From IMG/VR virus record IMGVR_UViG_3300028048_000050, positions 83,494 to 147,493 of that record: DNA of 64,000 nucleotides, one strand, 5' to 3'. Origin of the DNA: a virus. Lineage: Duplodnaviria > Heunggongvirae > Uroviricota > Caudoviricetes. Of this stretch, positions 6,901 through 46,360 are shown in pieces. Made by a program: the position numbers and the translations under genes. A model generated the notes under the pieces. It was given only the letters and a program-made list of their open reading frames with translations, did no database searches and was not told where the DNA came from. How positions within the stretch are numbered: position 1 is the stretch's first letter; the number at the start of each line of letters is the position of its first letter.

Positions 6901-9900
6901 ATAGCAGAAAATTGTGTATGGGATAACGGAGATGTATTACGTATAGAAATAGTACTTCCAAATACTAGGTTAACTAGTTACATGGATTTCAATGTTACTG
7001 ATACTAATAATAGAACTCACGTATGTACAGATATTAAATATGATGAAAAAGGAAATCCAACTCAATATTATTGGGAAGATTACTTTGAAATGATTTATCC
7101 TGATACTGATGATGTTGCTGAGGACGACGCTAAAAAAGGTTTAACTAAATTTAGTCCTACTTCTAAGTTTGTTAAGAAAGCAACTCCATTTATTAATTTC
7201 TTAAAATGGATTACTGATTGTAAAAACAATTATAATAAAACAACCGATTGGTGGCGCGCTGGAACATATGTTTCTACACAAGCTGCTTTTGAAGCTACTG
7301 CACACAAACACTTAGATTTATATAAGGTAGCAGCTTATTATATTTTCTTCTTAAGATTTGGACTTATTGACTCTGTTGAACGTAATGCTCAATTAAAAAC
7401 ATATGATGGACAACACTGGCATTATGAACCTTGGGATATGGATATTGCTCTTGGTAATAACAACCAAGGTAACCTTATCTTTGATCCTCCAATGACTAGA
7501 AATTCTCTAGAACCTGGTACAACTACATACGCTTTCTCAGGTAGAAGTACAACAACATCTAATGTTCTTTGGGATTGTCTGGAAGCTTGGACATATTGGG
7601 CAGAAACAGTAGTTCCTGCTGTAGCTAGAGCATTATATGGTGCTGGATTAAATTATAATAATATTATCAATATGTTTGATAAGGAATATGCTGAAGCTTG
7701 GTCCGAATCAATGTATAATGAGTCTGGTCACTATAAATATATTGAAAATGGTGGTGCTGACTGGTATGCTTGGTTACAAGGTTCTCGTACTTCTCACCGT
7801 CACTGGTGGATATCTACATCAATGAACTATTATGATGCTAAATGGTCTTGTGGTTCATTTAATGAACATAGAATTCGTATATTTGCTGATAAAGCTATTA
7901 ACGAAATAGGAACTGATATTGTAACAATTAAACCTACTACTGATACATTCTTTAAGATTGCTCAACAGGAAGGTAGAACAAGTTTAGGTTTCTTATCTGC
8001 TACAAGATTACAACCTGCTGTATTTGATATTTCTACAGCCGCTTTCTCTGCTAAAGACCCTTCATATATTTATGGTGGTACTTTTATAGAAGAAATTGAT
8101 TTAAGTTGTTTTGCAGAAAAGTTTAAAGCCGCTGACTTATCACTATGTTATGATTCAGTGCTTGGTGCTCCTATTAAGAAACTTAATGTTGGTATTCCTT
8201 ATACAGTTATTTCTGAAACTGAATATGAAGGAAAAGTTTCTGGTACACAATTCCGTTTAACTGGATATGATACTGGTTCTAAACAAGATGCTTTTGCTAA
8301 TCTTCAAGTTTTAGATATAACAGGACAAGGAACTATTACTAATACTCAAGAATTATTAGAAACAAGAAATAGAAAGAGTCTTACCGATTTATATGCTATT
8401 GGTAGTGGTATTACTCAATTTATGAGTTCTACTTCTGGTAATAAGTTTAATACACTTAAATTACCTGGTAAAACTACAACTACTTATACTAATCAACCAT
8501 CTACAATTGTAACATTTAATACTCTTACAATGCACAACAGTTCTTGGAATACTATAGAATTCTGGGATACAGTAAAATCTGGTGAAGTTCAATATGTAAG
8601 AGATCACGATGGTGAAATAGTATTAGATGATGATAATCTTCCAATCCTTGTACCTAATGTATCCACATTTACTAAGTCTATAATTCCAGCTGAATTAACT
8701 ACAGTTCAATATACTGGTAGTACAGCTAGAAATGAATGTGCAGGACAATTCTTATTAGATTGGATTGATTCTATTGATGCTAGTTTACCTGTTGGACATA
8801 CTGAAGAAGATTTATATGCAGCTTTACATAATAAAGTATTTGAAGCAGAAAATGTAAACTGGGGTGTTCCAGGACAAACATTAACTATTTCATATAATGA
8901 TTTAGCTAGAATTGCTCAATTCAATGAAGGAAATAATTCTGGTGGTAAGATAAAAGGTTATGTAATGCTTTCTGACCAAAATGAGTTAACTTCAGTTCAA
9001 GTAAGTAATATTATTCAATGGTTTGGTCCACAAGCTTTCTCTAAGAACGCTAGAAATAGCTCCTTAGTAGTTGACCAAAATTTAACTTATGTTAGATTAA
9101 CTAGCTTTGGAACTACTATTATAGATAACGAAATTTGTCTTGAAGAAGGTAATACAGCTCAAATATTAGCTACTAAATTCTTATTATCTGAAGACTCTCA
9201 ATTAGACTATGAATGGTCTGTTGCAGTAGGACAAAATCAAGATAGTTATGGAGTACATAACGTAAACTCAGTAACATTAAGAACTGGTGATGATGGTATT
9301 CCTTACATAGTAGCTGAAAAGAATGGTACTTATGGAGATTATTATATTACTGTAACAGCTACACATGCTGGAATTAATTATAAGATAACCATTAAAATTA
9401 TAGGAGGTATTCTTCCTGAAGATATTCAGATTAATACTTATACAGTAAGTGGAAGTGATTGTAGAAGATTTTATGTGTGTCAAGAAATGGCTAATGCTTC
9501 AGCAATGTTTAGAAATTCTGTATATGACGAAAATAATAATAATGTTTTAAGAGACGGATTTGTATTACAAGAAGCCAATCAATAGATAGAATTTTATCCA
9601 ACCACAATTGATGGTTCTACACCTTCTAATATTACAATGTCTTTAGCTAGATACCAATTAACTGATATTATTACTACTTATACAGCTCATACAGCTTTAC
9701 AAGGAGAAGATGATACATTAGAAAATAGAGTTGGTGATGATTATATTTATTACACTAAATCTGCTACTCATAAAGGAATAGTTATTGGTGTAACACAAGC
9801 TCCAAATAGTCCTAGACTATATACATTAAAAATAAATGTAGTAGTAGGAGGAAAACAATTTACAAGAAACATTAATTTATTGGTTTATAATGATGCACAA

Positions 9901-10518
9901 GTAATGCATACATAGAATACCTCTATCGGTGTTCAAAACGTATTAAACGCTAATCATACTCTTTTATATGGTAATGCTATTAATCAATATTATAAATCCG
10001 ATTTATTAAGTCTTGCTGGAGCATTAGATTTCTCTGCTGAATACTAGTCTATAGGTACTATATTAACTAATAATGGAGATAGATTATTACAATATATACA
10101 AAATGTATCAGAATTAAACTTCAATAGTTGTTCTTCATTAGATCAAAGCTCTTTAGGAGTAATTACTTCAGGAGTAATTAGTGTAGTATCATTACCTACT
10201 TTAACAACATTAAAGTTAAATGGAGCTCCTATTACAAATGTATTAGATTTAACTAATTGTCCTAATATTGAAACACTAGATACTAGAAATAGTAGTGCTG
10301 GTATAATATTAGCTACAAGTAGTCCTATTACTAGTATATAGTTAGGTTCTCCTTCTAAAGTAGATATTAGAAATCCTAAGTATTTAGTTAAAAATAATGT
10401 AACTATTTAGAGTAGTGTAAATATAACTGATATATCTTTAATAAATGTTAATATTGGAGATGTTTCTACACCTGCTTCAGTACAGGGATTTGGAATATTT
10501 AATATTTTATATTCATGA
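3970..10518 (+). CDS. giant virion-associated protein with CotH-kinase-like domain and C-terminal LRRs, 2182 aa
   Basis: Five ORF-track fragments in the same frame, joined by about 11 TAG codons. TGA at 10516-10518. Motifs 'GLIDSVERN...WHYEPWDMDIALG' (CotH-like) and 'LTTLKLNGAPITNVLDLTNCPNIETLDTRNS' (LRR). Confidence 0.85.
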
Positions 10519-11876
10519 CAAATTTAACTATTGAACAAAGTACATCAGCTGTAGAAAATGTTAATGCAGCTGTAATAGAGAAGTTATATGCACTTGCTTT
10601 AAATAGTAATGTGCAAGATTCAAACAATATATTTTAGATGTAGCTATAGGGAAACATTACTGTTCCTGCTGCTTATGAAGATTCAGTATTATATTTAAGA
10701 TAGAAATTTCCTAATCTGACTATAACTGTTTAGGATAATAATTTTTATATAAGATTTGCTGATTCTGAAGTAGAAAGAGTTTTAATTGCTAATAATATAA
10801 GTTCCGATGGAGTAGGAGTTAGTAAAACAGACGCACAATCATTAAATACTCTTCCATTGAGGTTATTTAAAGATAATACTACAATATAGACATTTGATGA
10901 ATTAGGTCGATTTGGAAATATAGAAATAGATGGAGAATGTTTTAAACAAGCTACAAATTTGCGAAGTATAGATCTTACAAATGTTACTAGAATAAAAGGA
11001 TAGTGGAGTTTTTCAAAAACTTCTTCATTAACAATTAAATTAAATATGCCTAATTTAATTTCTTTAGGGGATTTTTCTTTTGAATATTCAGGAATTACAG
11101 AAATCGAGGATTTAGGACATATTACAGAGATTCCAGGATATAATGCTGCTTCCTTTCATAGCTGTACAAATTTAACAAAAGTAGTACTTCCCACTTCTTG
11201 TACTAAATTGGGAATAAATTGTTTTTCACGATGTATAAATTTAACAACTATTTATCCAACTGATAATCTTACTACTTTAGAACATTGTTGTTTAAGAACT
11301 TAGGGTGTAATATCTAGTATATTAAATTTTAAAAATGTAGTAAATATAGGTTATATATTTTGTTCTAGTGGATATCCAACAGGGGAAAATAGAACTATAT
11401 GTAAACAAATATATTTACCTAAAGTAGTTGATCCTACGGATAAAAATGGATATATAAATATGAGTAATAAATATTATCGTGGAGGATTATTTGGAGACAT
11501 ATCTACAGAAATATTATATCTTAGAGATATTCAACATTTTTATGGACCGAGTTTTCATAATAGTCAAATAACAAATTTAGTTATAAATAATATAACTCCT
11601 CCTACTATTCATTACACTCAAGACTATACTTATTAGGAATATTTAGATTGGAAGGCTAGTAAGGGTGGAAATTATACTGGAGCACCTGAAGATGTGTTTG
11701 TAGAATCTTCTATTACTAATATATATGTTCCAGATTCAGCAGTAAATACTTATAAAAATGCACAATATTGGTCAAGTGTTTCTAGTAAAATATATCCTTT
11801 AAGTTAGTTAGCGAAAGTTGCAACAGAAGCAGATCTTCAATCAGGATAGATAGCATTAATAGAAGAATATATGTGA
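10515..11876 (+). CDS. BspA-type leucine-rich-repeat (LRR_5) protein, 453 aa
   Basis: ATGA overlap with the upstream gene. 'YIRFADSEVERV...TFDELGRF', 'FHSCTNLTKVVLPTSCTKLGINCFSRCINLTTI' and 'IYVPDSAVNTYKNAQYWS' repeats. Includes ORF 11046..11303. Confidence 0.85.
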
Positions 11877-11886
11877 TAGATACTTT

Positions 11887-11920
11887 AAATTAGGCACTAA
11901 TAATTGGTGCCTAATTTTTT
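11887..11920 (+). terminator. rho-independent terminator
   Basis: aaattaggcac...gtgcctaattt stem followed by a T-run, directly after the stop at 11876. Confidence 0.8.
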
Positions 11921-11941
11921 ATAGAGATAATAATTTTTAAT

Positions 11942-13210
11942 ATGGATGAATTAAACTCTTTACGCAAAAAGAATGGAGAAACTCTTGATTGTAACGAATG
12001 GAATAAATTAGTTTCAGTCATAAATTATATTATAGAGTTTTATAATTAGTATCCTACAAAGTTATCAGAATTTGAGAATGATATTGTTGGTTAGTTTATT
12101 GGTCCAACTGGTCCAAAAGGGGATAAAGGTGATAAAGGAGATACTGGTCCACAAGGTCCTGCTGGATTAGATGGTACAGTAGCATTTGATGAACTAACTA
12201 GTGAATAGAGAGCAAGTCTTAAAGGTGAATAGGGTGAACAAGGTGTTCAAGGAGAAACTGGAGAATAGGGTCCAGCTGGTGCAGATGGTAATAACGGTAA
12301 ATCAGCATATGAATTAGCTGTAGAAAATGGTTTTGATGGAACTGTAGAACAATGGTTACAATCTTTAGTTGGAGCTATTGGTAAATCAGCATATGAATTA
12401 TATGTTGATAATACTTCTGATGATCCAGTATTAACATTGGAACAATGGTTAGCGTCATTACATGGCACTAATGGTATTAATGGACAAGATGGAACAGACG
12501 GTGTAACTCCTCATATTAACAATTCTACTAAACACTGGATGATTGGAGACGTTGATACAGGAATTGTAGCAGAAGGACAAGATGGATCTAATGGTACAAA
12601 CGGACAAGATGGTGTAACACCTCACATAGATTAGACTACAGGAAACTGGTTCGTAGGTTCTACTGATACAGGAGTTCAAGCTTAGGGTCCTGCTGGTAAT
12701 GATGGTTCTAATGGAACTAATGGTAACGATGGTGTTACTCCTCACATAGATTCTACTTCTAAACACTGGATTATAGGTTCTACAGATACTAATATAGTTG
12801 CTGAAGGTTAGAACGGTAATGATGGAGTAACTCCACATATAGACTCTGTTACAGGTAATTGGTTTATAGGATCTACAGACACTGGAATTCATGCTCAAGG
12901 ACCTGCAGGTCAAGACGGTGATGTAGCAGGACAAATACAAGCAGATTGGAATCAAACTGATAATACTCAAGTAAGTTTTATAAGAAATAAACCAACTATT
13001 CCTGCAGCACAGGTACAATCTGATTGGAATGAGTCTGACAATAGTTCATCAGCATATATTGCTAATAAACCTACACTATTTTCTGGTTCATATAATGATT
13101 TAAGTAATAAACCAACAATTCCAATTATATGGTCAGGTACTTAGGCTCAATATGATGCTATTACAACCCCAGATCCTAATACTATTTACATAATAACTTC
13201 TGCGTCATGA
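11942..13210 (+). CDS. collagen-like tail fibre protein, 422 aa
   Basis: Gly-X-Y triplets (GPTGPKGDKGDKGDTGPQG; GEQGEQGVQGETGEQGPAG with TAG=Q), 2x GKSAYE, 4x 'DGVTPHI....K/GNW.IG..DTG', and a C-terminal 'QSDWNE...NKPT...WSGTQAQYDAITTPDPNTIYII'. Confidence 0.9.
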
Positions 13211-13920
13211 CAAGTACAGAAATAGCAGCAGCTAGTAAAGTAATGTTAGGTACTACCGAAGCTGTTGCAATGTATATAGGTAGTACTAAAATTTGGGAAT
13301 AGCAAACAGGACCTGTAGGTAGATTACCCCAAGGATATACGGAATTAGAATATATATCATCTACTTCATCAGGAGGATAGTATATAGATTTAGATATTCT
13401 TTTGTATGATGTATTAAATAAGAATTATGATATTGCTATTAAGTTTAAAGCTAAAGGTCCTGGATAGGATAATACTACCCAAGGCACTATTTTTGGATGC
13501 CAAGATAATACAGGTTCGCCATGGCCTGGAACATTTATAAGAATATCTAATAGTGATGTTCCAGGTAGATATATAGGCGGTAGTGGAAAAGATAATATAT
13601 TAGGACAAGTTGGTAATATAATAGAATTAGCAGAAAAAACATCTCCTGATAAAAACGTTTACGACTACAATAATAGTGGAAGAACTCATACTTGGGGTAC
13701 TTCATTATTCTGTATATTTAATAGCCAAAATAAAACTAATAGAATTAGATATATCGAAGCAGATTTATATTATTTTAAACTGTTTGTAGAAGGAACATTA
13801 GTAAGAGACATGATTCCTTGTAAAAATTCTAATGATGTTGTCGGATTATATGATTTAGTGAATAATGTATTTTATGCATCTCCAAATGGTGCATTGTTTG
13901 TAGCAGGACCTACAGTCTAA
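13207..13920 (+). CDS. putative receptor-binding/fibre-tip protein, 237 aa
   Basis: ATGA overlap. 'LPQGYTELEYISSTSSGGQYIDL' and 'LVRDMIPCKNSNDVVGLYDLVNNVFY' are motifs of a lectin/LamG-like phage domain. Ends TAA 13918-13920. Confidence 0.8.
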
Positions 13921-13926
13921 TTATAG

Positions 13927-13968
13927 AAATAGTCAGAAATGTCTTTTTAGATGTTTCTGGCTATTTTT
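13927..13968 (+). terminator. rho-independent terminator
   Basis: aaatagtcagaaatgtct-tttt-agatgtttctggctattt hairpin (with G-U pairs) plus T-run. Confidence 0.75.
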
Positions 13969-14009
13969 GTTTTACTCTAAATTTTTTTAATAAATTCTAA
14001 TACTTATTT

Positions 14010-14120
14010 AAAACGTTACTAAATGTAAGTAGCTGATTATCAATTAGTTACAAAATATTTAGTAACGTTTTCTCATTTATAGACCTCTAAATAAATTAGT
14101 ATCAGTTGCAACTAGATACT
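14010..14120. promoter_or_regulatory. nested inverted repeats upstream of the accessory operon
   Basis: Perfect 15-bp IR aaaacgttactaaat (14010-14024) / atttagtaacgtttt (14057-14071) around an imperfect inner palindrome. A second hairpin agtatc-agttgcaact-a-gatact lies at 14098-14120. Confidence 0.55.
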
Positions 14121-14154
14121 TTATTTAAAATTTAAAATTTAAAATTATTTATTT

Positions 14155-15129
14155 ATGTCTGAAACAAAAGTTTTTAATGTTCCTGATGGAAATAACAGTA
14201 TTAATCCCGCTTTAATGATGGCACTTTCTCAAAATGGGGGTTTCGGTAATGGAATGGCTTGGTTATGGCCTATGTTTATGTTTATGATGTTCCCTTGGCT
14301 ATTCAATGGTGGATTTGGAGGCTTTGGAGGCTTCGGTGGAGCAGGAAATGTTATGGGTACAGGATTCTTATCAAATCAATTAAACAACGATGCTGGTAGA
14401 GATTTACTTTTACAAGCTATTAATGGTAGATCAGATTCTTTAAATCAATTAGCAGGTATTCTTAATACTAGTGTTAGTCAAGTACAAAATGGTGTTAATG
14501 CTATTTAGACAGCAATTTAGAGTGTTGGTGCTCAAGTAGGTATGTCTGGACAGCAAGTTATTAATTCTATTCAGAATGGTAATGCTGCTCTTAGTCAGCA
14601 ATTATGTAATTGTTGCTGCGAAAATAGATTAGCTATTGCAAACCAGACTAATGCTATTTAGGCTCAAGCTGCTGCTAATCATTCTGATGCAATATTACTA
14701 GCTTCTCAAAATCATGCTGCTGATCAGTTACAGAATGCTCAGATTGAAGCTGCAGATCAATTAGCGGTTTGTTAGCAAACTAATACTCTTAGTTCACAAA
14801 ATGAGAGAAATACTAATAGTATTCTTAATGCTATTGCTGGTCAGAATACTCTTATTACAAAAGAGTTCTGTGATCTTAAAGAAAGAGAATTATAGAATAA
14901 GATTAATACTCAAGGTGATATAATTACTCAGTTAAGAAATCAGATTAGTAATGATCATCAGACTTTACAGTTTAATGCTGCTTTCCATGCATTAGATGAT
15001 AAGATTGATGCTATAGCTGCTAAACAACCTAATACAGTACCTGTTCAGTGGCCTAATATTATAGCTGCAAATGCTACTCCTTATATTGGAGGAGCTTGGG
15101 GCTATGGACAAACTAATTTTTGGAATTAA
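14155..15129 (+). CDS. Gly-rich/hydrophobic N-terminus, Gln/Asn-rich coiled-coil protein with CNCCC motif, 324 aa
   Basis: Extends ORF 14155..14508 through TAGs to TAA 15127-15129. 'WLWPMFMFMMFPWLFNGGFGGFGGFGG', 'QQLCNCCCENRLAIANQTN' and 'EFCDLKERELQNKI'. Confidence 0.85.
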
Positions 15130-15147
15130 TTTATAGGAGGATTGAAT

Positions 15148-15486
15148 ATGTTTGGAGCAACAACTAATTACCCTTTTAATTTTGCAAATAAAATGGGAAT
15201 ACCTATGATTGAAAGTAGTTCAGTAAATGTTACAGATACTAATGTAGTAATAAATATTCCAAATAGAGCCTTCAGATTTCTTAGTGGAACTGGACTTATT
15301 CTATTTAGATTAAATACTGAAATTACTAATACCGCACTTCCCATACTATTCTCTTCTAATGAATTTACTCAACCACTTACATTAGTAGGAGGAGCAGCTG
15401 CTACTGGAACAGATTTTTCTGCTGTTGGTATTTATATCATTTATTATGATAAAAATGCTAACTTAATGTAGTTAATTAATATCTAA
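15148..15486 (+). CDS. hypothetical protein, 112 aa
   Basis: GGAGG upstream. Reads through TAG 15469 to TAA 15484-15486, which overlaps the next ATG. Confidence 0.8.
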
Positions 15487-15950
15487 TGTTTTCAGCTTTA
15501 TCTCAAGGAAGTTCTGTCTATATATTAGACAAAACTTCCTCTCCTAAATATTCCATAGGAGAAGTGGTAGGAGTAAGCTAGCCAAAAATAAACTATAATG
15601 GTTAGTCTACTGTAGATTTAAGAGTTAATGTGGATAATACTACACAGGAATTCAGTAATTTATTAAGTATCAATAGTATAAACACTTATAATGGAGGAAA
15701 AATTGTTATTAGTGAAACTAAACAAGGAATCCAAAATGAAGTAGAATCTATATTAGAAAATAGTAGAAAAATTGTTAATAATATAGATGTATATAAGCAA
15801 AATATTGTTGATTGTGAAAATATTCTTAAAGAGTTAAATCCACAGTTTGCAATAGATAAAGAAAGAGACGAAAGATTAACAAGTTTAGAAAATAGATTTG
15901 ATGGTTTTGAGTCTAAGTTGGATAAAATATTTAATTTAGTATAGAAATGA
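15486..15950 (+). CDS. hypothetical protein with C-terminal coiled coil, 154 aa
   Basis: TAATG overlap start (MFSALSQGSSVYILDK). Includes ORF 15630..15944. TGA overlaps the next ATG. Confidence 0.8.
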
Positions 15951-16162
15951 TTGTATTAGAATTTACAGAGGATAAATTTGGAAAAGCTATGAAAGCTATT
16001 TCTGAAATAGGAAAACATTCAGAGTGTCTTGCTGCTATATTTGAAGACTTATCTGAAGATTCTGAATACGGGGAAAGAAGTAGACATCACAAAGAGTATG
16101 ACGATGATGATATGTACGGTTCTCGTTATGGTATGCGCCGTGGCGGCAGACGTTCTTATTGA
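15947..16162 (+). CDS. small hypothetical protein, acidic then Arg/Gly-rich tail (YGMRRGGRRSY), 71 aa
   Basis: ORF track, ATGA overlap. Confidence 0.8.
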   Translation: MIVLEFTEDKFGKAMKAISEIGKHSECLAAIFEDLSEDSEYGERSRHHKEYDDDDMYGSRYGMRRGGRRSY

Positions 16163-16164
16163 TA

Positions 16165-16560
16165 ATGATTAGAACATCACTAAATCAATATGACGATAGA
16201 CCTACTACAATGAAACGTTATTTAAAATACTTTGGACAACACTTTAATAAAAAGTTATGTTATTTTGCTATATCTAAAATGGATCATGGTAAAACTCCAG
16301 TAACTAAAGAATAGGTTGATGAAGTATTAAAAAGACATGGAATAACTTTAAAGAATAATGAACTTTATGATTATGTCTATGTTTATAATATGGGAAATAA
16401 TGATTTCATGGGTAGTAGCATTGCTGATGAAAAACATTTAGCAATGTATGTCAAAGATGTTATAGATGATAAGGATGGATATGATGGAATAGTTTTTAAT
16501 AGATGGTATGCTGATACAGTAGTACAAGGAGTTCCAGTTGAATGGGATGAAATGTTATGA
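16165..16560 (+). CDS. hypothetical protein, 131 aa
   Basis: One internal TAG. 'YLKYFGQHFNKKLCYFA...YDYVYVYNMGNNDF...FNRWYAD...VEWDEML'. Confidence 0.8.
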
Positions 16561-16952
16561 TTATAGATAAATTTATTATTTATAATTGGGAAATAACAGT
16601 ATTATATGAATGTACTTGTGATGATATTGATTTTATAATAGATGCTTTATAGGATATTAATTGTCCTAATAAATATATAAAAGAAGCTCTACATAATTTA
16701 CAAACTTGTAATTTAAATATAGGCTTAACGTATTCAAATACACAATTAAAAAGTTCTGTTATAGTTGTTAATAAAACAAGTTCATTTTCTCAACTAATAA
16801 ATACTATAGCTCACGAATATTACCATCTTATCTGTCATATATCTAAAATGTTAGAAATAGAAGATGAAGAAGAACTAGCTTACTTAAATGGTGATTTAAA
16901 TATGCGTTCTTATAATATTATTAAAAAGTTAGAAAATAAAGTAGGTTCTTAA
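16557..16952 (+). CDS. putative zinc metallopeptidase-like protein (HExxH), 131 aa
   Basis: ATGA overlap. 'NTIAHEYYHL' followed by 'EEELAYLNG'. One TAG. Confidence 0.7.
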
Positions 16953-16970
16953 TAAGAATCTACTTTTTTT
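16938..16970 (+). terminator. rho-independent terminator
   Basis: aaagtaggttctt-aat-aagaatctacttt plus T-run, overlapping the stop of the HExxH gene. Confidence 0.8.
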
Positions 16971-17027
16971 TGTTTTATACCTAATTATGAGTATTTTTAA
17001 ATAAACAGTTTTAAAATAGTAAAGATT

Positions 17028-17114
17028 ATGGCAAGACCAAAACCAATGTCAGCTAAGATGAATCCAATGGGACCAATCCGTAAAAAAGGAGGAAAAATTG
17101 GAAAGAAATCTTAA
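17028..17114 (+). CDS. 28-aa basic peptide MARPKPMSAKMNPMGPIRKKGGKIGKKS
   Basis: ATG preceded by an A-rich leader. Carries the KKGG motif shared with cargo-like genes. Below the ORF-track size cut-off. Confidence 0.55.
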   Translation: MARPKPMSAKMNPMGPIRKKGGKIGKKS

Positions 17115-17478
17115 ATATAAAGGATTTCTGATTATATTAAAGTATATTCCGCATATAAATGCCTTATGTTATATGATTTATACTTTATTATGTTTTGCGG
17201 GAATAGATCCATTAATATTAGGACAATTAACTAAAATGTCTTTATTTTCTTGGTCGTTTATGTTTTTAACTTCTATAATATTTAGATATTGTTATGTACA
17301 TAGACTTCCATTATATTATATTGCGGTTAATGAATTCCTAGTAAATTTAGATTATTATGTAGGAATACCAGTTGATGATACTAAATTATTATTAATACAC
17401 TTAACTGTTATAATGAGTTTAATTTATGGGTATTCTTATTATTATGTTAAACATAAGTTAAAATGGGAAGATTTATAA
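17098..17478 (+). CDS. small membrane protein, 126 aa
   Basis: ORF track (TTG start). Three to four hydrophobic segments. Confidence 0.7.
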   Translation: MERNLKYKGFLIILKYIPHINALCYMIYTLLCFAGIDPLILGQLTKMSLFSWSFMFLTSIIFRYCYVHRLPLYYIAVNEFLVNLDYYVGIPVDDTKLLLIHLTVIMSLIYGYSYYYVKHKLKWEDL

Positions 17479-18401
17479 CGTATATCGGATCACCATGCTC
17501 AGCAATGAGAAAAGCACAGTAGAAGTAGAAGGAACAGGAAGAACAAAAACCTATCTATGTTCCTAAAGTTGGAGATATTTTAGTACATAATTCAAATACT
17601 AATGAAGATAAAGTAGTTCCTTATGCAGAATGGTTACAACTAGGAGACTCTTGGGATATTACAGGTATATATGGAGTAACAACTTACGAGGAAGGAGATG
17701 CTGAATATGGTTATTATGTAATTATGTCTAACGGAACCACTTTAATTATTAATCCTGATGATTATGATAAAGTAAACAATAATTGGGAACAAGTTGATAC
17801 AATTACTTTTGATGAAGTTGATTTAGGTTTACCATCTGGAACTATCTGGTCTACAAAAAATGTAGGAGCAATAGATCCTTATACACGTGGTTAGTATTTC
17901 TCTTGGGGAAACCTTGAAGGATATGTAGCCTCTTATAATGAAGGAGATTATTCTGGAGAAATAGTTGGATATAGCTTTATTTAGAGTAACTATGAATTAA
18001 CTGATGGTTATTAGTTATCTGGAAGTATTCCAGTAGAAAAAGATGCTGCTACTGATATTATAGGAGGAGAATGGAGAATTCCTACTGATACACAATTCCA
18101 AGAATTATTTGATAATTGTACTATTACTTGGGTAACAAGGAATGGAATAGAAGGTAAATTATTTACATCTAATATTAATGGAAAAACTTTATTCCTTATA
18201 AACAATGGTTATGGTAACGCAACTACTTTGGACTCTCCTAAGTATTAGGCTGCTTATTGGACTAGTACAGAAGATGATATAGATACTAGTAAAGCTTTAG
18301 CGTTTGCCCTTAGTACTTCTATTCTTGATAGTTTAAATACAGTTCACCCAGAAGACAAGAGATTTGGATTTGGTATTAGACCTGTTAAAGTCTCAGCTTA
18401 A
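17463..18401 (+). CDS. protein with Bacteroidota 'VDLGLPSG' lectin-like (DUF1566/Fib_succ_major-related) C-terminal domain, 312 aa
   Basis: 'EVDLGLPSGTIWSTKNVGA...GQYFSWG' (Q=TAG), 'WRIPTDTQFQEL', 'YWTST' and terminal 'RFGFGIRPV'. Confidence 0.8.
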
Positions 18402-18403
18402 TT

Positions 18404-18688
18404 ATGTTACAATTAATTAAAACTGCTTTAAAATAGTTTATTAATGATATAGACTCTGGAAACACTAATATAAATGAAGAATAGCAACAAGAGTTACTTT
18501 CTTTATTACTTTAGTTTAATTCTAAAGAATTATCTAAAGTGGAAGCTGCTGAATATATTGGTGTTTCTAGAGCTTCTTTTGATAATTATATTAGAAAAGG
18601 ATTAATTCCAAAAGGTCACAAAAGACCCGGTTTTAAAGAACTAAGTTGGAATAAATCTGATCTAGACAAATATCTTAATGAAAAATGA
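18404..18688 (+). CDS. helix-turn-helix DNA-binding protein (AlpA/excisionase-like), 94 aa
   Basis: 'LSKVEAAEYIGVSRASFDNYIRKGLIPKG...W.KSDLDKYL'. Three TAG upstream of the HTH. Confidence 0.8.
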
Positions 18689-18894
18689 ACATGTTTGGAA
18701 GTAGCCAATAGGAACTTGGCTCATTGGATGAAAATTTAATTTTAAATACAGCAGGTAAAGTTAAAATTAGATATGGTAAGAAATTCGTAGATTTATTAAA
18801 TGATAAAGGAGAGTTGAATTTTCCTCAAGAAATATTGTAGAGAATAACAGCTCTTGAAAATGAGATAAAAACATTAAAAGAAAAAATAAAATAA
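18685..18894 (+). CDS. small hypothetical protein, 69 aa
   Basis: ATGA overlap. 'LILNTAGKVKIRYGKKFVDLL' plus a short coiled coil. Confidence 0.7.
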
Positions 18895-22872: not shown

Positions 22873-24300
22873 ATGAAAATAGCTAGTTTTGTTTCTAACA
22901 TCCCTACTATGGGAGATACTCGTACTTATGAAGATTTCTATAAGTACTTAGGTGTTAAACCACAACGTCTTGGTATCGTATCAAGAATGTACACTGATTT
23001 AACAGCTTCTTTCTTAACCGAATCTCTTAAAAATGTATTCTATACAGATGTTAAAGGTGGAGGTAATAAATACCAATCTTTAAATGCTTTCCAATACGAT
23101 TTCGATATCGAAACTAACTACATTAAGAGAATCGAATTCGCTGCTGTACCAGAAGGTGACGGTGCAGGTGGTACTGAAATCGTAATGGCTTTCAGAGAAA
23201 GATATTACGAAAAGTATGATATCTTCAAGATTGAAAATTCAGGTCAGCAATGTATGGTTGTAGCTCGTCCTGTTCGTAAAGGTGACAACTACTGGGAGTG
23301 TGTAGTAAGATTAGTTGATAACAACTATGATACTATTCTTGATGTAACAGCTTGTCAACCTGGTGATAAGACAAGATGGATTACAGCTAACATGCCTGAA
23401 ATGCATGAAGAAGGTTATACTAAGTGGCAATCTAATGTTGAAAAACACAGAGGTTACATCCAAACTCACCGTTTCGATGCTGACTATTCTGAAAGATATG
23501 CTGCATTAGAAAATGTATTTATTAAAGTTGCTGAAGGTAAGGATCAAGGTTCTATGACAGAAACTATCTATAAGATGGATACTGTTCAAAAGACTCTTCT
23601 TAACACCTTCCTAGAAGGACGTAACAACGCTCTCTTATTCTCTAAGGGTAACGTTGATGAAAACGGTAAAGCAACTATCGTTGATCCACAAACTAACAGA
23701 CCTATTTATATTTCTGATGGTCTTATTCCACAGGTAGAAGCTTTTGCTAGTAAATATGCTTACAATAAGCTTACTATCAATGTATTAAGAACAGCTATCC
23801 AATGCTTAAATGAAAAAGCTAGAAATGCTACTGGTAACAAGTATATGTTTATTTGTAACGAAGCTTTCTACTATCAATTAGGTGACTTACTTGATACATA
23901 CTTAGCACAATATCATACTGATGGTACATATCTATGGTCTATGAAGGCTAATGGTTATGTTGAAGTTGGTGCTAAAGGATTTGACACTTACAGATGGATG
24001 GGTAATGAAATCACATTCAAAGTTGATAGAACATTCTCAAGAGAATTTGGTTATGATAAGGGTTATGCAATTGCAATTGACTTAACCGGTGATAAGACAA
24101 GTTCACAACCACCTATCGGCTTGTTCACTCTTAAAGGTGGTGATATGATGCAATCATTCATCAAGGGTGTTGGTGGATTAACAGGTTTAGAGTCTGGTGA
24201 AGTTTCTACTCCTGTTGCAGGTGCAAAACGTATTATGTGGGGTTATAGCTCATTAGCTTTATTCAATCCTTACAAGTCTTACGTTTTAAAGGAAGTGTAA
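22873..24300 (+). CDS. major capsid protein (crAss-like), 475 aa
   Basis: ORF track. 'RTYEDFYKYLGVKP', 'MPEMHEEGYTKWQSNVEKHRGYI', 'ISDGLIPQVE' and 'STPVAG' resemble crAss-type MCPs. Strong codon bias, no TAG. Confidence 0.9.
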   Translation: MKIASFVSNIPTMGDTRTYEDFYKYLGVKPQRLGIVSRMYTDLTASFLTESLKNVFYTDVKGGGNKYQSLNAFQYDFDIETNYIKRIEFAAVPEGDGAGGTEIVMAFRERYYEKYDIFKIENSGQQCMVVARPVRKGDNYWECVVRLVDNNYDTILDVTACQPGDKTRWITANMPEMHEEGYTKWQSNVEKHRGYIQTHRFDADYSERYAALENVFIKVAEGKDQGSMTETIYKMDTVQKTLLNTFLEGRNNALLFSKGNVDENGKATIVDPQTNRPIYISDGLIPQVEAFASKYAYNKLTINVLRTAIQCLNEKARNATGNKYMFICNEAFYYQLGDLLDTYLAQYHTDGTYLWSMKANGYVEVGAKGFDTYRWMGNEITFKVDRTFSREFGYDKGYAIAIDLTGDKTSSQPPIGLFTLKGGDMMQSFIKGVGGLTGLESGEVSTPVAGAKRIMWGYSSLALFNPYKSYVLKEV

Positions 24301-45405: not shown

Positions 45406-46134
45406 ATGGCATAGTTATATAATCCAATAACAGATGCTTTTACTTATTACAATCCAATAGAAGTTTCTAATAATAAATCATTAAAAATAAATGATTCTTT
45501 ATTTGGAGAACAAGAATTCTCTGATAAATTTAGTGGAATAACTAGTGATGGAATTCCTATAGCTAATTCTAATATTCCAGAAGAAAAAGAAGAAGTTTTT
45601 GGTAAAGATATTTAGGATAGAATGGCTTCCACTCATGCAGAAAATCCCGTAACTTTTAATAATTCTGGAAAAGCTAGTAAAATTTCTTTGAAAGGTTCAG
45701 AAAACCTTAGTAAAGTAATTGATGAAGTATCCAATGAAGCAGGTTTTGAAAAATTAAAAGACCCCAATATAAAAAAATTAATATTATTATAGGCTAAAAG
45801 AGAATCTTCATTTAATCCTACTATCCAAAGTAGATCTTCTAGTGCTAGTGGTTATTTCCAATTTATAGATAGTACTAGAAAAAGATATAGTAACTATTCT
45901 AAGTAGGATTTCTTAAAAGATTAGAAAGAACAAGTTAGAGCTGCTTATAAGTATTTATAGGATATACATAATACACCAAGCGCTTTAAAATTAAAATAGC
46001 AAGGATATAACGATGCTGTTATAACTGCTTTAGGTTGGTGGTATCCTAGATCAATGGACATGGTTTTATAGGGTAAAAAAGATTTTTCTTTAGGAGGATA
46101 TAGTATTAAAAAAGCACTAGAAGATTATGGATAA
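45406..46134 (+). CDS. lytic transglycosylase (SLT/lysozyme-like) protein, 242 aa
   Basis: 'LILLQAKRESSFNPTIQSRSSSASGYFQFIDSTRKRY' contains the catalytic Glu (ES) and the GxFQF motif. TAG at codon 3. Confidence 0.8.
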
Positions 46135-46360
46135 ATTTAATTGGAAAACAATATTTTAGGCTCATAGTGGAGGATTTTCTAGTAAGAGAGTATTTGGAGC
46201 ATTAGGAATGTTAATTTGTTTAGGTATATTAGTAGCTGCTTTTATAATGGAGCGTTCTATACCAGATTTCGCTGAATTAGTATACGTTACTAGTGCTTCA
46301 TTATTAGGTTTAGATAATGTTACAGATATTTTTAAAAAGAATGTTAATAAATCTAATTAA
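46127..46360 (+). CDS. putative holin, 77 aa
   Basis: 'GGFSSKRVFGALGMLICLGILVAAFI...LVYVTSASLLGL' gives two TM helices and a basic C-terminus. It overlaps the SLT gene. TAG at codon 11. Confidence 0.7.

What the first reader, a model, noticed from the sequence alone, without database searches (positions are those of the whole stretch)
14155..16970. Self-contained six-gene operon of unknown function embedded among fibre genes
Seen: six coupled genes bounded by terminators (13927 and 16938), with their own structured upstream region. They encode a hydrophobic/Gly-rich coiled-coil protein with CNCCC, a 112-aa beta-type protein, a coiled-coil protein, a small acidic protein with an RGG-rich tail, a 131-aa aromatic-rich protein, and an HExxH peptidase-like protein. 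None resembles a virion structural gene. I recognise similar gene sets from diverse gut phages, but I know of no assigned function. Inference: a coherent uncharacterised system, for example a membrane-active protein with a chaperone and processing protease acting in superinfection exclusion, counter-defence or host-envelope remodelling. This is the best candidate for an undescribed system in this window.
Basis: partly seen in the sequence, partly recalled or inferred. Interest (0 to 1): 0.75.

Follow-up and report, generated by a model that had tools for sequence, protein, structure and literature searches.

The report
Conserved phage stalk-and-knob gene cassette
This is a real, separately transcribed six-gene cassette (plus a linked membrane-protein gene) shared by thousands of gut and rumen phages; it seems to build a membrane-anchored rod with an exchangeable fibre-tip-like knob, and its function has never been described.

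Summary
Six translationally coupled genes (14155-16952) lie between two terminator hairpins in a 179-kb crAss-like rumen phage. All six keep the same order in 70 of 88 related loci, including a cultured non-crAss Bacteroides phage. Three cattle metatranscriptome runs hold the stretch.

New here:
- The last ~25 residues of g1 and the small protein g2 are swapped together as a matched pair, in three classes, with 77 of 77 distinct pairs concordant.
- g2 folds like the distal domain of phage tail fibres.
- g1 belongs to the family of the uncharacterised phage T5 gene T5.077.
- g5 (DUF7841) has a confident fold with no solved match.
- g6 keeps HExxH plus a downstream Glu.
- A 126-aa multi-pass membrane gene always sits beside the block.

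Relatives often place the cassette next to holin, endolysin or spanin-like genes. In this genome the amidase is 23 kb away. No lipoprotein partner, defence-system match or published description was found.

Best reading (about 40%): an envelope-acting stalk-and-knob device of the infected cell. Rivals are an accessory virion fibre and superinfection exclusion.

This scan has already met the same cassette on other DNA.

The parts
13924..13969 (+). Terminator-like hairpin that closes the preceding fibre-region gene (13207-13920) and insulates the cassette on its 5' side
   Evidence: 20-pair stem followed by a T run. More distant relatives have an ordinary short-loop terminator 125-150 nt upstream of g1.
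14010..14071 (.). Perfect 15-nt inverted repeat (AAAACGTTACTAAAT / ATTTAGTAACGTTTT, 32 nt apart) upstream of the promoter. Possible operator or RNA/DNA hairpin; role unknown.
   Evidence: Conserved in the near relatives L021, L032, L005 and L006.
14100..14120 (+). Likely promoter -7 element (TATCAGTTG, 14100-14108; a variant of the Bacteroidota TAnnTTTG box) and inferred transcript start at about 14114-14120
   Evidence: Most relatives have a canonical TAnnTTTG(C) box 50-95 nt upstream of g1. Fourteen 2.4-3.1-kb contigs cover only this block; most begin at window 14115-14132 and lack terminal repeats. The start site is inferred, not mapped.
14155..15129 (+). g1, 324 aa: Gly/Trp/Phe-rich hydrophobic N-terminal segment, long Q/N/A-rich helical rod with a CNCCC(E) cluster, and a Pro-rich linker leading to an aromatic/Gly tail that ends in ...NFWN
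   Evidence: Matches phrog_16490 (3e-26) and phrog_8119 (5e-6). Related to T5.077. At least 7406 related clusters, none named. The C-terminal tail co-varies with the g2 type.
15148..15486 (+). g2, 112 aa (type A): small beta-sandwich with a tail-fibre-tip-like fold; the exchangeable 'knob'
   Evidence: The family model has pLDDT 86. Fold matches to distal domains of tail fibres. Three sequence types are swapped independently of the other genes.
15486..15950 (+). g3, 154 aa: N-terminal beta-rich domain plus C-terminal coiled coil; invariant N-terminal MF..L
   Evidence: Matches phrog_28898. 2834 related clusters, none named. Against solved structures only coiled-coil-type matches appear.
15947..16162 (+). 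g4, 71 aa: acidic helical head with a Tyr/Arg/Gly-rich basic tail; no TAG codon
   Evidence: An equivalent with a poly-Arg tail is present in C3_41T2LP. A g4-like tail is fused to a g5-like domain in cr52_1 gp22, which has no TAG.
16165..16560 (+). g5, 131 aa: DUF7841 domain with many invariant Asp residues
   Evidence: Pfam PF25223, 93.5 bits against a cut-off of 25.2. The family model has pLDDT 88. No solved-fold match; best Z is 4.3. Only DUF7841 clusters match in AlphaFold DB.
16557..16952 (+). g6, 131 aa: minimal zincin-like protein with H86-E87-x-x-H90 and conserved E105
   Evidence: HExxH is present in 61 of 62 family members, and E105 is at least 90% conserved. Only sub-threshold matches to Peptidase_M78, M76, SprT and MPTase-PolyVal.
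16938..16966 (+). Intrinsic-terminator-like hairpin with a T run; it overlaps the end of g6
   Evidence: The transcript-like contigs end raggedly at 16514-16945, just before it.
17098..17478 (+). 'TM126', 126 aa: multi-pass membrane protein with no TAG codon. A separate transcription unit that always accompanies the cassette.
   Evidence: Homologues occur in 52 fetched loci. In 51 they lie outside the block, nearly always beside it: 16 downstream of g6 (median 125 nt) and 35 upstream of g1 (median 414 nt). No Pfam, PHROG, NCBIfam or PADLOC match.

Best explanation
The block is an autonomous accessory cassette of Bacteroidales phages, crAss-like and others, with its own promoter and terminator. 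Its core is a two-part stalk and knob.

- g1 (T5.077 / PHROG 8119-16490 superfamily) is held in a membrane by its Gly/aromatic-rich hydrophobic N-terminus. It forms a long helical rod clamped by a Cys-x-Cys-Cys-Cys cluster.
- The last ~25 residues of g1 dock g2, a small beta-sandwich with the fold of tail-fibre distal domains.
- The g1 tail and g2 are exchanged between phages as one matched specificity module.
- g3 (beta domain plus coiled coil), g4 (acidic/Arg-rich), g5 (DUF7841, a fold with no solved match) and g6 (minimal HExxH...E zincin) are soluble partners. They probably assemble, process or regulate the device.
- The neighbouring four-helix membrane protein TM126 is its membrane partner or antagonist.

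I think it most likely acts at the envelope of the infected cell late in infection, as an accessory to lysis or envelope breakdown. In that reading the knob recognises a variable envelope component once the soluble parts reach it.

Shown: the genes, their co-inheritance, the RNA, the matched swapping, the folds and the T5.077 link.
Inferred: membrane anchoring, the g1-g2 contact, the timing and the envelope role.
For: Co-inheritance and expression:
- All six genes lie in one order in 70 of 88 loci; most of the rest are cut by contig ends.
- The same set is present in cultured Bacteroides phage C3_41T2LP, among recombination genes.
- RNA runs X3, X4 and X5 hold 92-94% of the stretch.
- Block-only contigs have a sharp common 5' end downstream of a -7-type box.

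Stalk and knob:
- g1 tail class and g2 type agree in 77 of 77 distinct pairs.
- The rest of g1, and g3 right next to g2, do not co-vary with the g2 type.
- The g2 model has pLDDT 86.
- It matches a Pa193 baseplate/tail-fibre chain (Z 5.3, 94 residues aligned).
- It matches C-terminal parts of many tail-fibre proteins in BFVD (probability 1.0, TM 0.5-0.6).
- It matches Gp53-like_C, Collar and Gly_rich_2 clusters in the Atlas (TM 0.61-0.64).

Membrane and envelope link:
- The hydrophobic Gly-zipper-like segment and the xCCCE motif are conserved from crAss-like phages to a Parabacteroides siphophage and T5.077.
- TM126 lies beside the block in nearly all of the 52 loci that have it.
- Lysis genes flank the cassette in several settings. 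In L073, two small TM genes and an amidase lie upstream. crAss001 gp27/gp28 homologues and an endolysin follow g6 in 8 loci. In PD691P3 and BF503P2, g5 precedes a holin-like, endolysin and spanin-like set. In cr272_1 an endolysin follows the block.
- crAss001 has its lysis cassette in the same syntenic slot.

Late use: five of the six genes contain TAG=Gln codons.
Against: - In this genome the amidase and its membrane partner lie about 23 kb upstream of the block. In C3_41T2LP and T5 the cassette is not inside a lysis cluster. The link to lysis genes may therefore only reflect the usual late-gene order.
- g2-g6 have no signal peptide or lipobox (sequence), so they cannot reach the periplasm unaided.
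- The hydrophobic segment of g1 is short, is not flanked by basic residues, and falls below a standard hydropathy cut-off in several relatives. Anchoring and topology are therefore uncertain.
- crAss001 lyses its host without this cassette.
- The fold similarities of g2 are modest; Z 5.3 is below the typical best chance level quoted by the tool.
- No experiment on any member was found.
Confidence: 0.4

Rival explanations
1. Accessory virion fibre. g1 is a head or tail fibre shaft, g2 is its separately encoded, exchangeable receptor-binding tip, and g3-g6 are assembly chaperones plus a maturation peptidase.
For: - g2 has the fold of tail-fibre distal domains.
- The swapping of a matched tail and tip is typical of receptor-binding modules.
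- The block lies among fibre genes here and next to a 1214-aa fibre-like gene in L073.
- Relatives of g1 are annotated 'viral fiber' or 'spike' in the Yutin crAss-like genomes.
- The amber-containing genes and g1's reduced TAG share (0.14) fit a fairly abundant late protein.
Against: - The conserved hydrophobic Gly-zipper segment and the linked multi-pass membrane gene are odd for a fibre.
- The cassette has its own promoter and terminator, and in C3_41T2LP it sits among recombination genes.
- The T5 relative lies in the tRNA region, far from the structural genes, under the annotated promoter P12. From my own knowledge, it is not among the well-studied T5 virion proteins.
- crAss001, whose virion has been solved, lacks the cassette.
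- No longer fibre protein containing a g2-like sequence was found (the tool rates this as weak evidence).
Confidence: 0.2
2. Moron-type host-interaction module. The infected cell displays or releases the stalk and knob to exclude superinfecting phages, to mask a receptor on cells and debris, or to counter a host defence. The g2 types would then track different targets.
For: - It is an autonomous unit with a host-type -7 box and terminators.
- It moves between unrelated phage groups, from crAss-like phages to siphophages and T5-like phages.
- It has sharply distinct, exchangeable specificity alleles.
- TM126 has no TAG codon, so it could be made before amber suppression begins.
Against: - No match to any PADLOC model.
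- g2 has no export signal (sequence).
- g1, g2, g3, g5 and g6 need amber suppression, which fits late rather than early expression.
- Nothing ties the g2 types to host or competitor identity.
Confidence: 0.2
3. True two-component or unimolecular spanin. g1 is the inner-membrane spanin that fuses or breaks the outer membrane at the last step of lysis.
For: - g1 has the i-spanin outline: N-terminal hydrophobic segment, long helices and Cys residues.
- It is often next to holin and endolysin genes.
Against: - No lipobox ORF in any frame within or beside the block.
- Relatives carry separate gp27-like or LysB-like N-TM coiled-coil genes beside the cassette.
- The five extra conserved genes and a fibre-tip-like partner are unexplained by this reading.
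- The block is not next to the amidase in this genome.
Confidence: 0.08

Closest known systems
Phage T5 operon T5.077-T5.079 (promoter P12 to a bidirectional terminator; all three annotated 'hypothetical protein')
   Same: - T5.077 and g1 share length (321 against 324 aa), the Gly-zipper hydrophobic segment, Q/N/A-rich helices and the xCCCE motif.
- Pairwise BLASTP E is 2e-7 and my g1 profile scores E 8e-10.
- T5.077 defines phrog_8119 (E 1e-191), which g1 also hits.
- Both are self-contained units with their own promoter and terminator.
   Different: - T5 has three genes. Its partners (a Q-rich 138-aa protein and a 64-aa Cys-doublet peptide) show no similarity to g2-g6.
- T5 has no DUF7841, no zincin and no fibre-tip-like g2.
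- The host is E. coli, and the unit lies in the tRNA region.
Two-component spanins (lambda Rz/Rz1, P2 LysB/LysC)
   Same: g1 has the outline of an i-spanin: N-terminal hydrophobic anchor, long helical region and Cys residues able to form intermolecular bonds. It frequently neighbours holin and endolysin genes.
   Different: - No lipoprotein partner.
- Twice the size of Rz.
- Five further conserved genes.
- A non-exported beta-sandwich partner.
- Separate spanin-like genes coexist with it in relatives.
- Not adjacent to the lysis genes in this genome.
Modular phage tail fibres with exchangeable distal tips (Gp53-like_C, Collar-associated C-terminal domains)
   Same: - g2 shares the distal-domain fold.
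- The g1 tail and g2 are exchanged as a unit, like receptor-binding modules.
   Different: - The tip is a separate 112-aa protein.
- The shaft carries a membrane-type hydrophobic segment and a Cys cluster.
- The cassette is an autonomous transcription unit that also occurs outside structural modules.
Phage morons (accessory units with their own promoter and terminator, as in lambdoid phages)
   Same: Own promoter-like box and terminators, patchy distribution and transfer between unrelated phages.
   Different: It is much larger (six or seven genes), highly conserved in order, present in thousands of lytic phages, and uses the phage's recoded amber codons.

Membership tests
Two-component spanin (Rz/Rz1 type) | i-spanin: N-terminal transmembrane anchor with a periplasmic coiled-coil domain | tested here: inconclusive
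   A hydrophobic Gly/aromatic segment and long helices are present. The segment is short, lacks basic flanks and falls below a hydropathy cut-off in some relatives. Topology was not testable.
Two-component spanin (Rz/Rz1 type) | Partner o-spanin: a small lipoprotein gene with a lipobox, embedded in, overlapping or adjacent to the i-spanin gene | tested here: not met
   A scan of every start in all six frames of 13900-17600 found no lipobox-type signal.
Two-component spanin (Rz/Rz1 type) | Located in the lysis cassette with holin and endolysin | tested here: not met
   In this genome the amidase is at genome 74218-74832, about 23 kb upstream of the block. The feature is met in many relatives.
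Holin | Small (about 60-220 aa) membrane protein with at least one TMD and a charged C-terminus, next to the endolysin gene | tested here: not met
   g1 is 324 aa, mostly helical rod, and not beside the endolysin here. TM126 has a holin-like size and a charged end. It is unrelated to the holin-like proteins of PD691P3 and BF503P2 (hhalign probability 0.1) and is not beside the amidase.
T5.077 family (PHROG 8119 / 16490) | Significant profile match, plus a Gly-rich hydrophobic segment followed by helices carrying the CCC motif | tested here: met
   phrog_16490 at 2.9e-26 and phrog_8119 at 5e-6. T5.077 matches phrog_8119 at 1e-191. BLASTP 2e-7 and HMM 8e-10.
Pfam DUF7841 (PF25223) | Score above the curated gathering threshold | tested here: met
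   g5 scores 93.5 bits against a cut-off of 25.2.
Zincin metallopeptidases (Peptidase_M78/ImmA-IrrE; MPTase-PolyVal) | Conserved HExxH with a third metal ligand | tested here: met
   HExxH is present in 61 of 62 family members. E105, 15 residues after the second His, is at least 90% conserved. Catalysis was not tested.
Zincin metallopeptidases (Peptidase_M78/ImmA-IrrE; MPTase-PolyVal) | Pfam family score above the gathering threshold | tested here: not met
   M78 scores 19.6 against 22, M76 16.8 against 25.2 and SprT 15.4 against 25.6. MPTase-PolyVal scores 14.9 against 27.5 for the L073 homologue, and nothing for the C3_41T2LP protein annotated as PolyVal.
Phage tail fibre (distal receptor-binding domain) | Fold of a fibre distal domain | tested here: inconclusive
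   VIA Z 5.3, rmsd 3.6, 94 residues aligned to a Pa193 baseplate/tail-fibre chain. BFVD tail-fibre C-termini match at E 3e-4 to 1e-2 with TM 0.5-0.6. Atlas Gp53-like_C and Collar clusters match at TM 0.61-0.64. The theme is consistent but the scores are modest.
Phage tail fibre (distal receptor-binding domain) | Presence in the virion | not testable with these tools
   No proteome of a phage that carries the cassette was found.
Known anti-phage defence or exclusion systems (PADLOC) | Match to a defence-system protein model | tested here: not met
   No meaningful match for g1-g6 or TM126. The best hit is a coiled-coil-type match of g3 at E 0.001.
Moron-type autonomous unit | Own promoter and terminator, with RNA evidence for a separate transcript | tested here: inconclusive
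   Terminators, a -7 box in relatives, block-only contigs with a common 5' end and RNA runs holding the stretch.

The most novel reading that the evidence does not exclude
A previously unrecognised class of phage envelope device. It would be a membrane-anchored, cysteine-clamped rod (T5.077 superfamily) that captures a cytoplasmic, tail-fibre-like knob through a matched C-terminal docking peptide. The knob allele would set which envelope component of the host is engaged, for example for holin-gated outer-membrane attack or for masking receptors on lysing cells. The device would be spread across thousands of phages, from crAss-like phages to T5.
Probability: 0.3. Interest if true: 0.8.

Novelty: categorically new. 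Interest (0 to 1): 0.62.

Why it matters
g1 alone has at least 7,400 distinct relatives, none with a name or a Pfam domain. The cassette is transcribed in cattle gut communities and sits in crAss-like phages, among the most abundant gut viruses, whose late functions and lysis are poorly understood. The link to T5.077 and to cultured Bacteroides and Parabacteroides phages makes the question tractable at the bench. The matched g1-tail/g2 classes give a sharp and cheap hypothesis: matched pairs bind and mismatched pairs do not. If the device acts on the envelope or on receptors, it would be a new kind of host-interaction or lysis accessory module. It would also explain a large block of 'hypothetical' genes in gut viromes.

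Tried and rejected
Transcript ends and levels could not be mapped.
I then kept the window's own g2, g3 and g5 away from remote tools and used public homologues instead.
- Complex prediction on the last 80 residues of a type-B g1 with its g2 gave 'no answer' (score 0.00). This is evidence neither for nor against binding.
- Apparent fusions (g3+g4, g5+g6, g6+TerL) are artefacts of reading TAG as Gln in relatives where TAG is a stop. The TAG sits exactly at each junction.
- The g5 fold had no PDB match by Foldseek. The VIA best hit was Z 4.3 to Ulp1/NEDD8-type proteases without a conserved Cys. The GenBank labels 'sigma factor' and 'ubiquitin-like' are not supported.
- PDB sequence-profile searches for g5 and g3 gave only chance or coiled-coil hits.
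- NCBIfam gave nothing, and Pfam gave nothing for TM126 or T5.077.
- crAss001 has no homologue of any of the six genes.
- The window has no gp27/gp28-type lysis gene.
- TM126 is unrelated to the siphophage holin-like proteins.
- No longer protein containing a g2-like sequence was found (weak evidence).
- Codon adaptation to the capsid genes is only slightly above the median here (g1 0.647 against a median of 0.616). I do not claim capsid-level expression.
- An ENA contig carrying a g1 homologue gave no information on RNA or DNA origin.
- A literature search on dispensability of this T5 region found nothing usable.
Full report
**What is there.** Under the standard code the region looks like short fragments. 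Reading TAG as glutamine doubles + strand coding across the whole window (10.5k to 21.3k aa) and yields six tightly packed genes:
- g1, 14155-15129, 324 aa
- g2, 15148-15486, 112 aa
- g3, 15486-15950, 154 aa
- g4, 15947-16162, 71 aa
- g5, 16165-16560, 131 aa
- g6, 16557-16952, 131 aa

Starts and stops overlap by 1-4 nt or lie less than 20 nt apart. Terminator-like hairpins stand at 13924-13969 and 16938-16966. A perfect 15-nt inverted repeat lies upstream at 14010-14071 and is conserved in the nearest relatives. The window is part of a 179-kb crAss-like phage genome. Its nearest GenBank relatives are Suoliviridae from pig faeces.

**Co-occurrence.** I fetched relatives through g1 and g5 from IMG/VR and from GenBank phages. 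I called ORFs under TAG=Gln and searched them with iterated profiles.
- All six genes lie in the same order in 70 of 88 loci; most exceptions are contigs that end inside the block.
- The complete set also occurs in the cultured 74-kb Bacteroides uniformis phage C3_41T2LP, among recombination genes.
- Reduced sets occur in other phages: a g1-like gene with g3 and g5 in a cultured Parabacteroides phage, g5 alone in B. fragilis phages, and g5, g1, g2 and g3 in cr52_1.
- Apparent gene fusions are read-through artefacts in relatives that use TAG as a stop.
- One fusion is real. cr52_1 gp22 joins a g5-like domain to a g4-like acidic/Arg-Gly tail and contains no TAG.
- g1 has at least 7,406 related clusters and g3 has 2,834. 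None carries a Pfam domain or an informative name.

**A seventh gene.** The 126-aa multi-pass membrane gene just beyond the terminator (17098-17478, no TAG codon) has homologues in 52 loci. In 51 they lie outside the block: 16 downstream of g6 (median 125 nt) and 35 upstream of g1 (median 414 nt). No library recognises it.

**Transcription.**
- Fourteen IMG/VR contigs of 2.4-3.1 kb cover only this block. Most begin at window 14115-14132, they end raggedly before the 3' hairpin, and none has terminal repeats.
- The samples that yield them gave no long contig in either the g1 or the capsid search.
- Most relatives have a canonical Bacteroidota -7 box (TAnnTTTG) 50-95 nt upstream of g1. The window has TATCAGTTG at 14100-14108, 6-12 nt before those 5' ends.
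- Three cattle gut metatranscriptome runs, from two samples and two studies, hold 92-94% of the sampled words of 14050-17050.

This fits a separate, well-expressed transcript from a host-type promoter. Codon adaptation here is only mildly raised, although g1 uses TAG for just 14% of its Gln codons.

**The proteins.**
- *g1* has a Gly/Trp/Phe-rich hydrophobic segment, a long Q/N/A-rich helical region with CNCCC(E), a Pro-rich linker and an aromatic/Gly tail. The xCCCE motif and the Gly-zipper-like segment persist in C3_41T2LP, in the Parabacteroides phage and in phage T5 protein T5.077. T5.077 is the core of phrog_8119, which g1 also matches. T5.077-079 is likewise a self-contained unit with an annotated promoter and terminator.
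- *g5* is DUF7841. A family model is confident (pLDDT 88) but matches no solved structure, only other DUF7841 models. The GenBank labels 'sigma factor' and 'ubiquitin-like' are therefore unsupported.
- *g6* keeps HExxH in 61 of 62 members and a Glu 15 residues further on. It reaches no curated peptidase family threshold.
- *g3* is a beta-rich domain plus coiled coil with an invariant N-terminus.
- *g4* is an acidic helix with a basic Arg/Gly/Tyr tail.
- None of g2-g6 has a signal peptide, and no lipobox ORF exists in any frame.

**The new finding: a matched, exchangeable pair.**
- g2 falls into three sequence types of only 20-30% mutual identity. These are distributed independently of the similarity of the other genes. 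For example, g1 is 83% identical with g2 at 26% in one locus, and g1 is 59% with g2 at 77% in another.
- Sliding-window comparison shows that only the last ~25-30 residues of g1 follow the g2 type (identity 0.52-0.55 within a type against 0.27 between types). The rest of g1, and g3 including its N-terminus immediately downstream of g2, do not.
- The g1 C-terminal motif class (...NFWN...NIVF/GVVL...SYWG) agrees with the g2 type in all 77 distinct pairs. A fourth class (...GCGCGC/Y) goes with the larger g2 of cr52_1 and C3_41T2LP.
- A g2 family model is a confident beta-sandwich (pLDDT 86).
- Its best solved match in two independent searches is the C-terminal domain of a Pa193 baseplate/tail-fibre chain (Z 5.3, 94 of 111 residues aligned).
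- In viral model libraries it matches the C-terminal parts of many tail-fibre proteins and the Gp53-like_C, Collar and Gly_rich_2 clusters.

Together these suggest a rod (g1) whose tail docks a fibre-tip-like knob (g2). The one complex prediction allowed gave no verdict, so the contact stays an inference from co-variation. Physical linkage of adjacent DNA is the alternative explanation. The sharp lack of co-variation on the g3 side weakens that alternative but does not exclude it.

**Context and function.** The cassette often adjoins lysis genes:
- In L073, two small membrane genes and an amidase lie directly upstream.
- In eight loci, homologues of crAss001 gp27/gp28 and an endolysin lie directly downstream.
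- In the cultured siphophages, a holin-like, endolysin and spanin-like set follows g5.
- In cr272_1, an endolysin follows the block.
- crAss001 has its lysis cassette in the same slot between the fibre genes and the capsid module, but has no homologue of the six genes.

Against this, in this genome the amidase and its membrane partner lie 23 kb away, beyond terminase, portal and the fibre genes. In C3_41T2LP and T5 the unit is elsewhere. The constant features are therefore autonomy, the membrane-type g1, the linked membrane gene and the stalk-knob pair.

I read it as an accessory device acting at the infected cell's envelope late in infection (about 40%). The rivals are:
- an accessory virion fibre with its own assembly factors (about 20%);
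- a moron-type exclusion or receptor-masking module (about 20%);
- a true spanin (about 8%). This fails the lipoprotein-partner test.

No defence-system model matches.

**Relation to earlier notes of this scan.** Look-ups showed that the same cassette, and the T5.077-079 trio, were flagged before on other genomes, with similar conclusions: a conserved cassette, function unknown, often beside lysis genes.
- I re-tested the T5/PHROG link, the recoding and the upstream amidase myself.
- The 'stalk-and-knob' wording comes from one of those notes. The co-variation and the g2 fold are my own tests of it.
- Earlier remarks on capsid-like codon usage are not reproduced strongly in this window.

**Limits.**
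The folds are of public homologues: g5 from L073 (56% identical to the window protein), and g2 from L076 (type B, 28% identical, in a family alignment that covers all three types).
- No experiment on any member was found in the searchable literature.

Noticed in passing
L122, L123, L117, L119-L121 (relatives of window 22873-24300): In several related phages the major capsid gene matches only in pieces (residues 15-181 or 182-475). This includes the two ~180-kb contigs closest to this genome. It suggests an insertion, such as an intron or homing element, that splits the capsid gene in relatives.
   Followed up: no
window 17463-18401: A 312-aa protein with a weak FISUMP / Lcl_C-type C-terminal domain, directly after TM126. 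It is probably a lectin-like receptor-binding protein. It follows the block in only five loci from a few close relatives.
   Followed up: partly
window 18404-18688: A 94-aa HTH_17 (excisionase-type helix-turn-helix) protein lies in the middle of the fibre region of a lytic crAss-like phage. It is a possible local regulator; the conserved 15-nt inverted repeat upstream of g1 has no known binder.
   Followed up: no
window 45406-46360: An SLT-type transglycosylase (242 aa; Pfam SLT 4.8e-9) is followed by an overlapping 77-aa single-TM protein. This is either a second lysis-type pair or a virion-borne wall-cutting enzyme with a membrane partner.
   Followed up: no
L017/L073, L036, L042, L043, L052, L065 against the window: Relatives with g1 65-71% identical to the window's use TAG as a stop at the g3/g4, g5/g6 or g6 ends, while this phage reads TAG as Gln inside the same genes. 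The genetic-code state therefore differs between fairly close relatives that share the cassette.
   Followed up: partly
L090:5173-5415 (Bacteroides phage BF503P2): An unannotated 80-aa ORF (TTG start) has CCGCG / CGCGG clusters and an RGRRG stretch. It lies upstream of the g5-like gene and resembles a miniature g1/g4.
   Followed up: no
BFVD entry A0A8S5LXP6 (a crAss-like virus): A 294-aa protein named as DUF7841-containing also matches the g2 fold over about 98 residues. It is either a g2-g5 fusion or a read-through of a recoded stop.
   Followed up: no
window 15142-15160 and 18685-18700: The TTG-start reading of g2 and the 69-aa ORF at 18685 both begin with MNMFG. This may be chance or a shared start context.
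   Followed up: no
genome 73544-74832 (about 9-10 kb before the window start): The amidase is preceded by an overlapping 225-aa protein with one N-terminal TM segment. This is the likely holin- or spanin-type partner of this phage's real lysis pair.
   Followed up: partly
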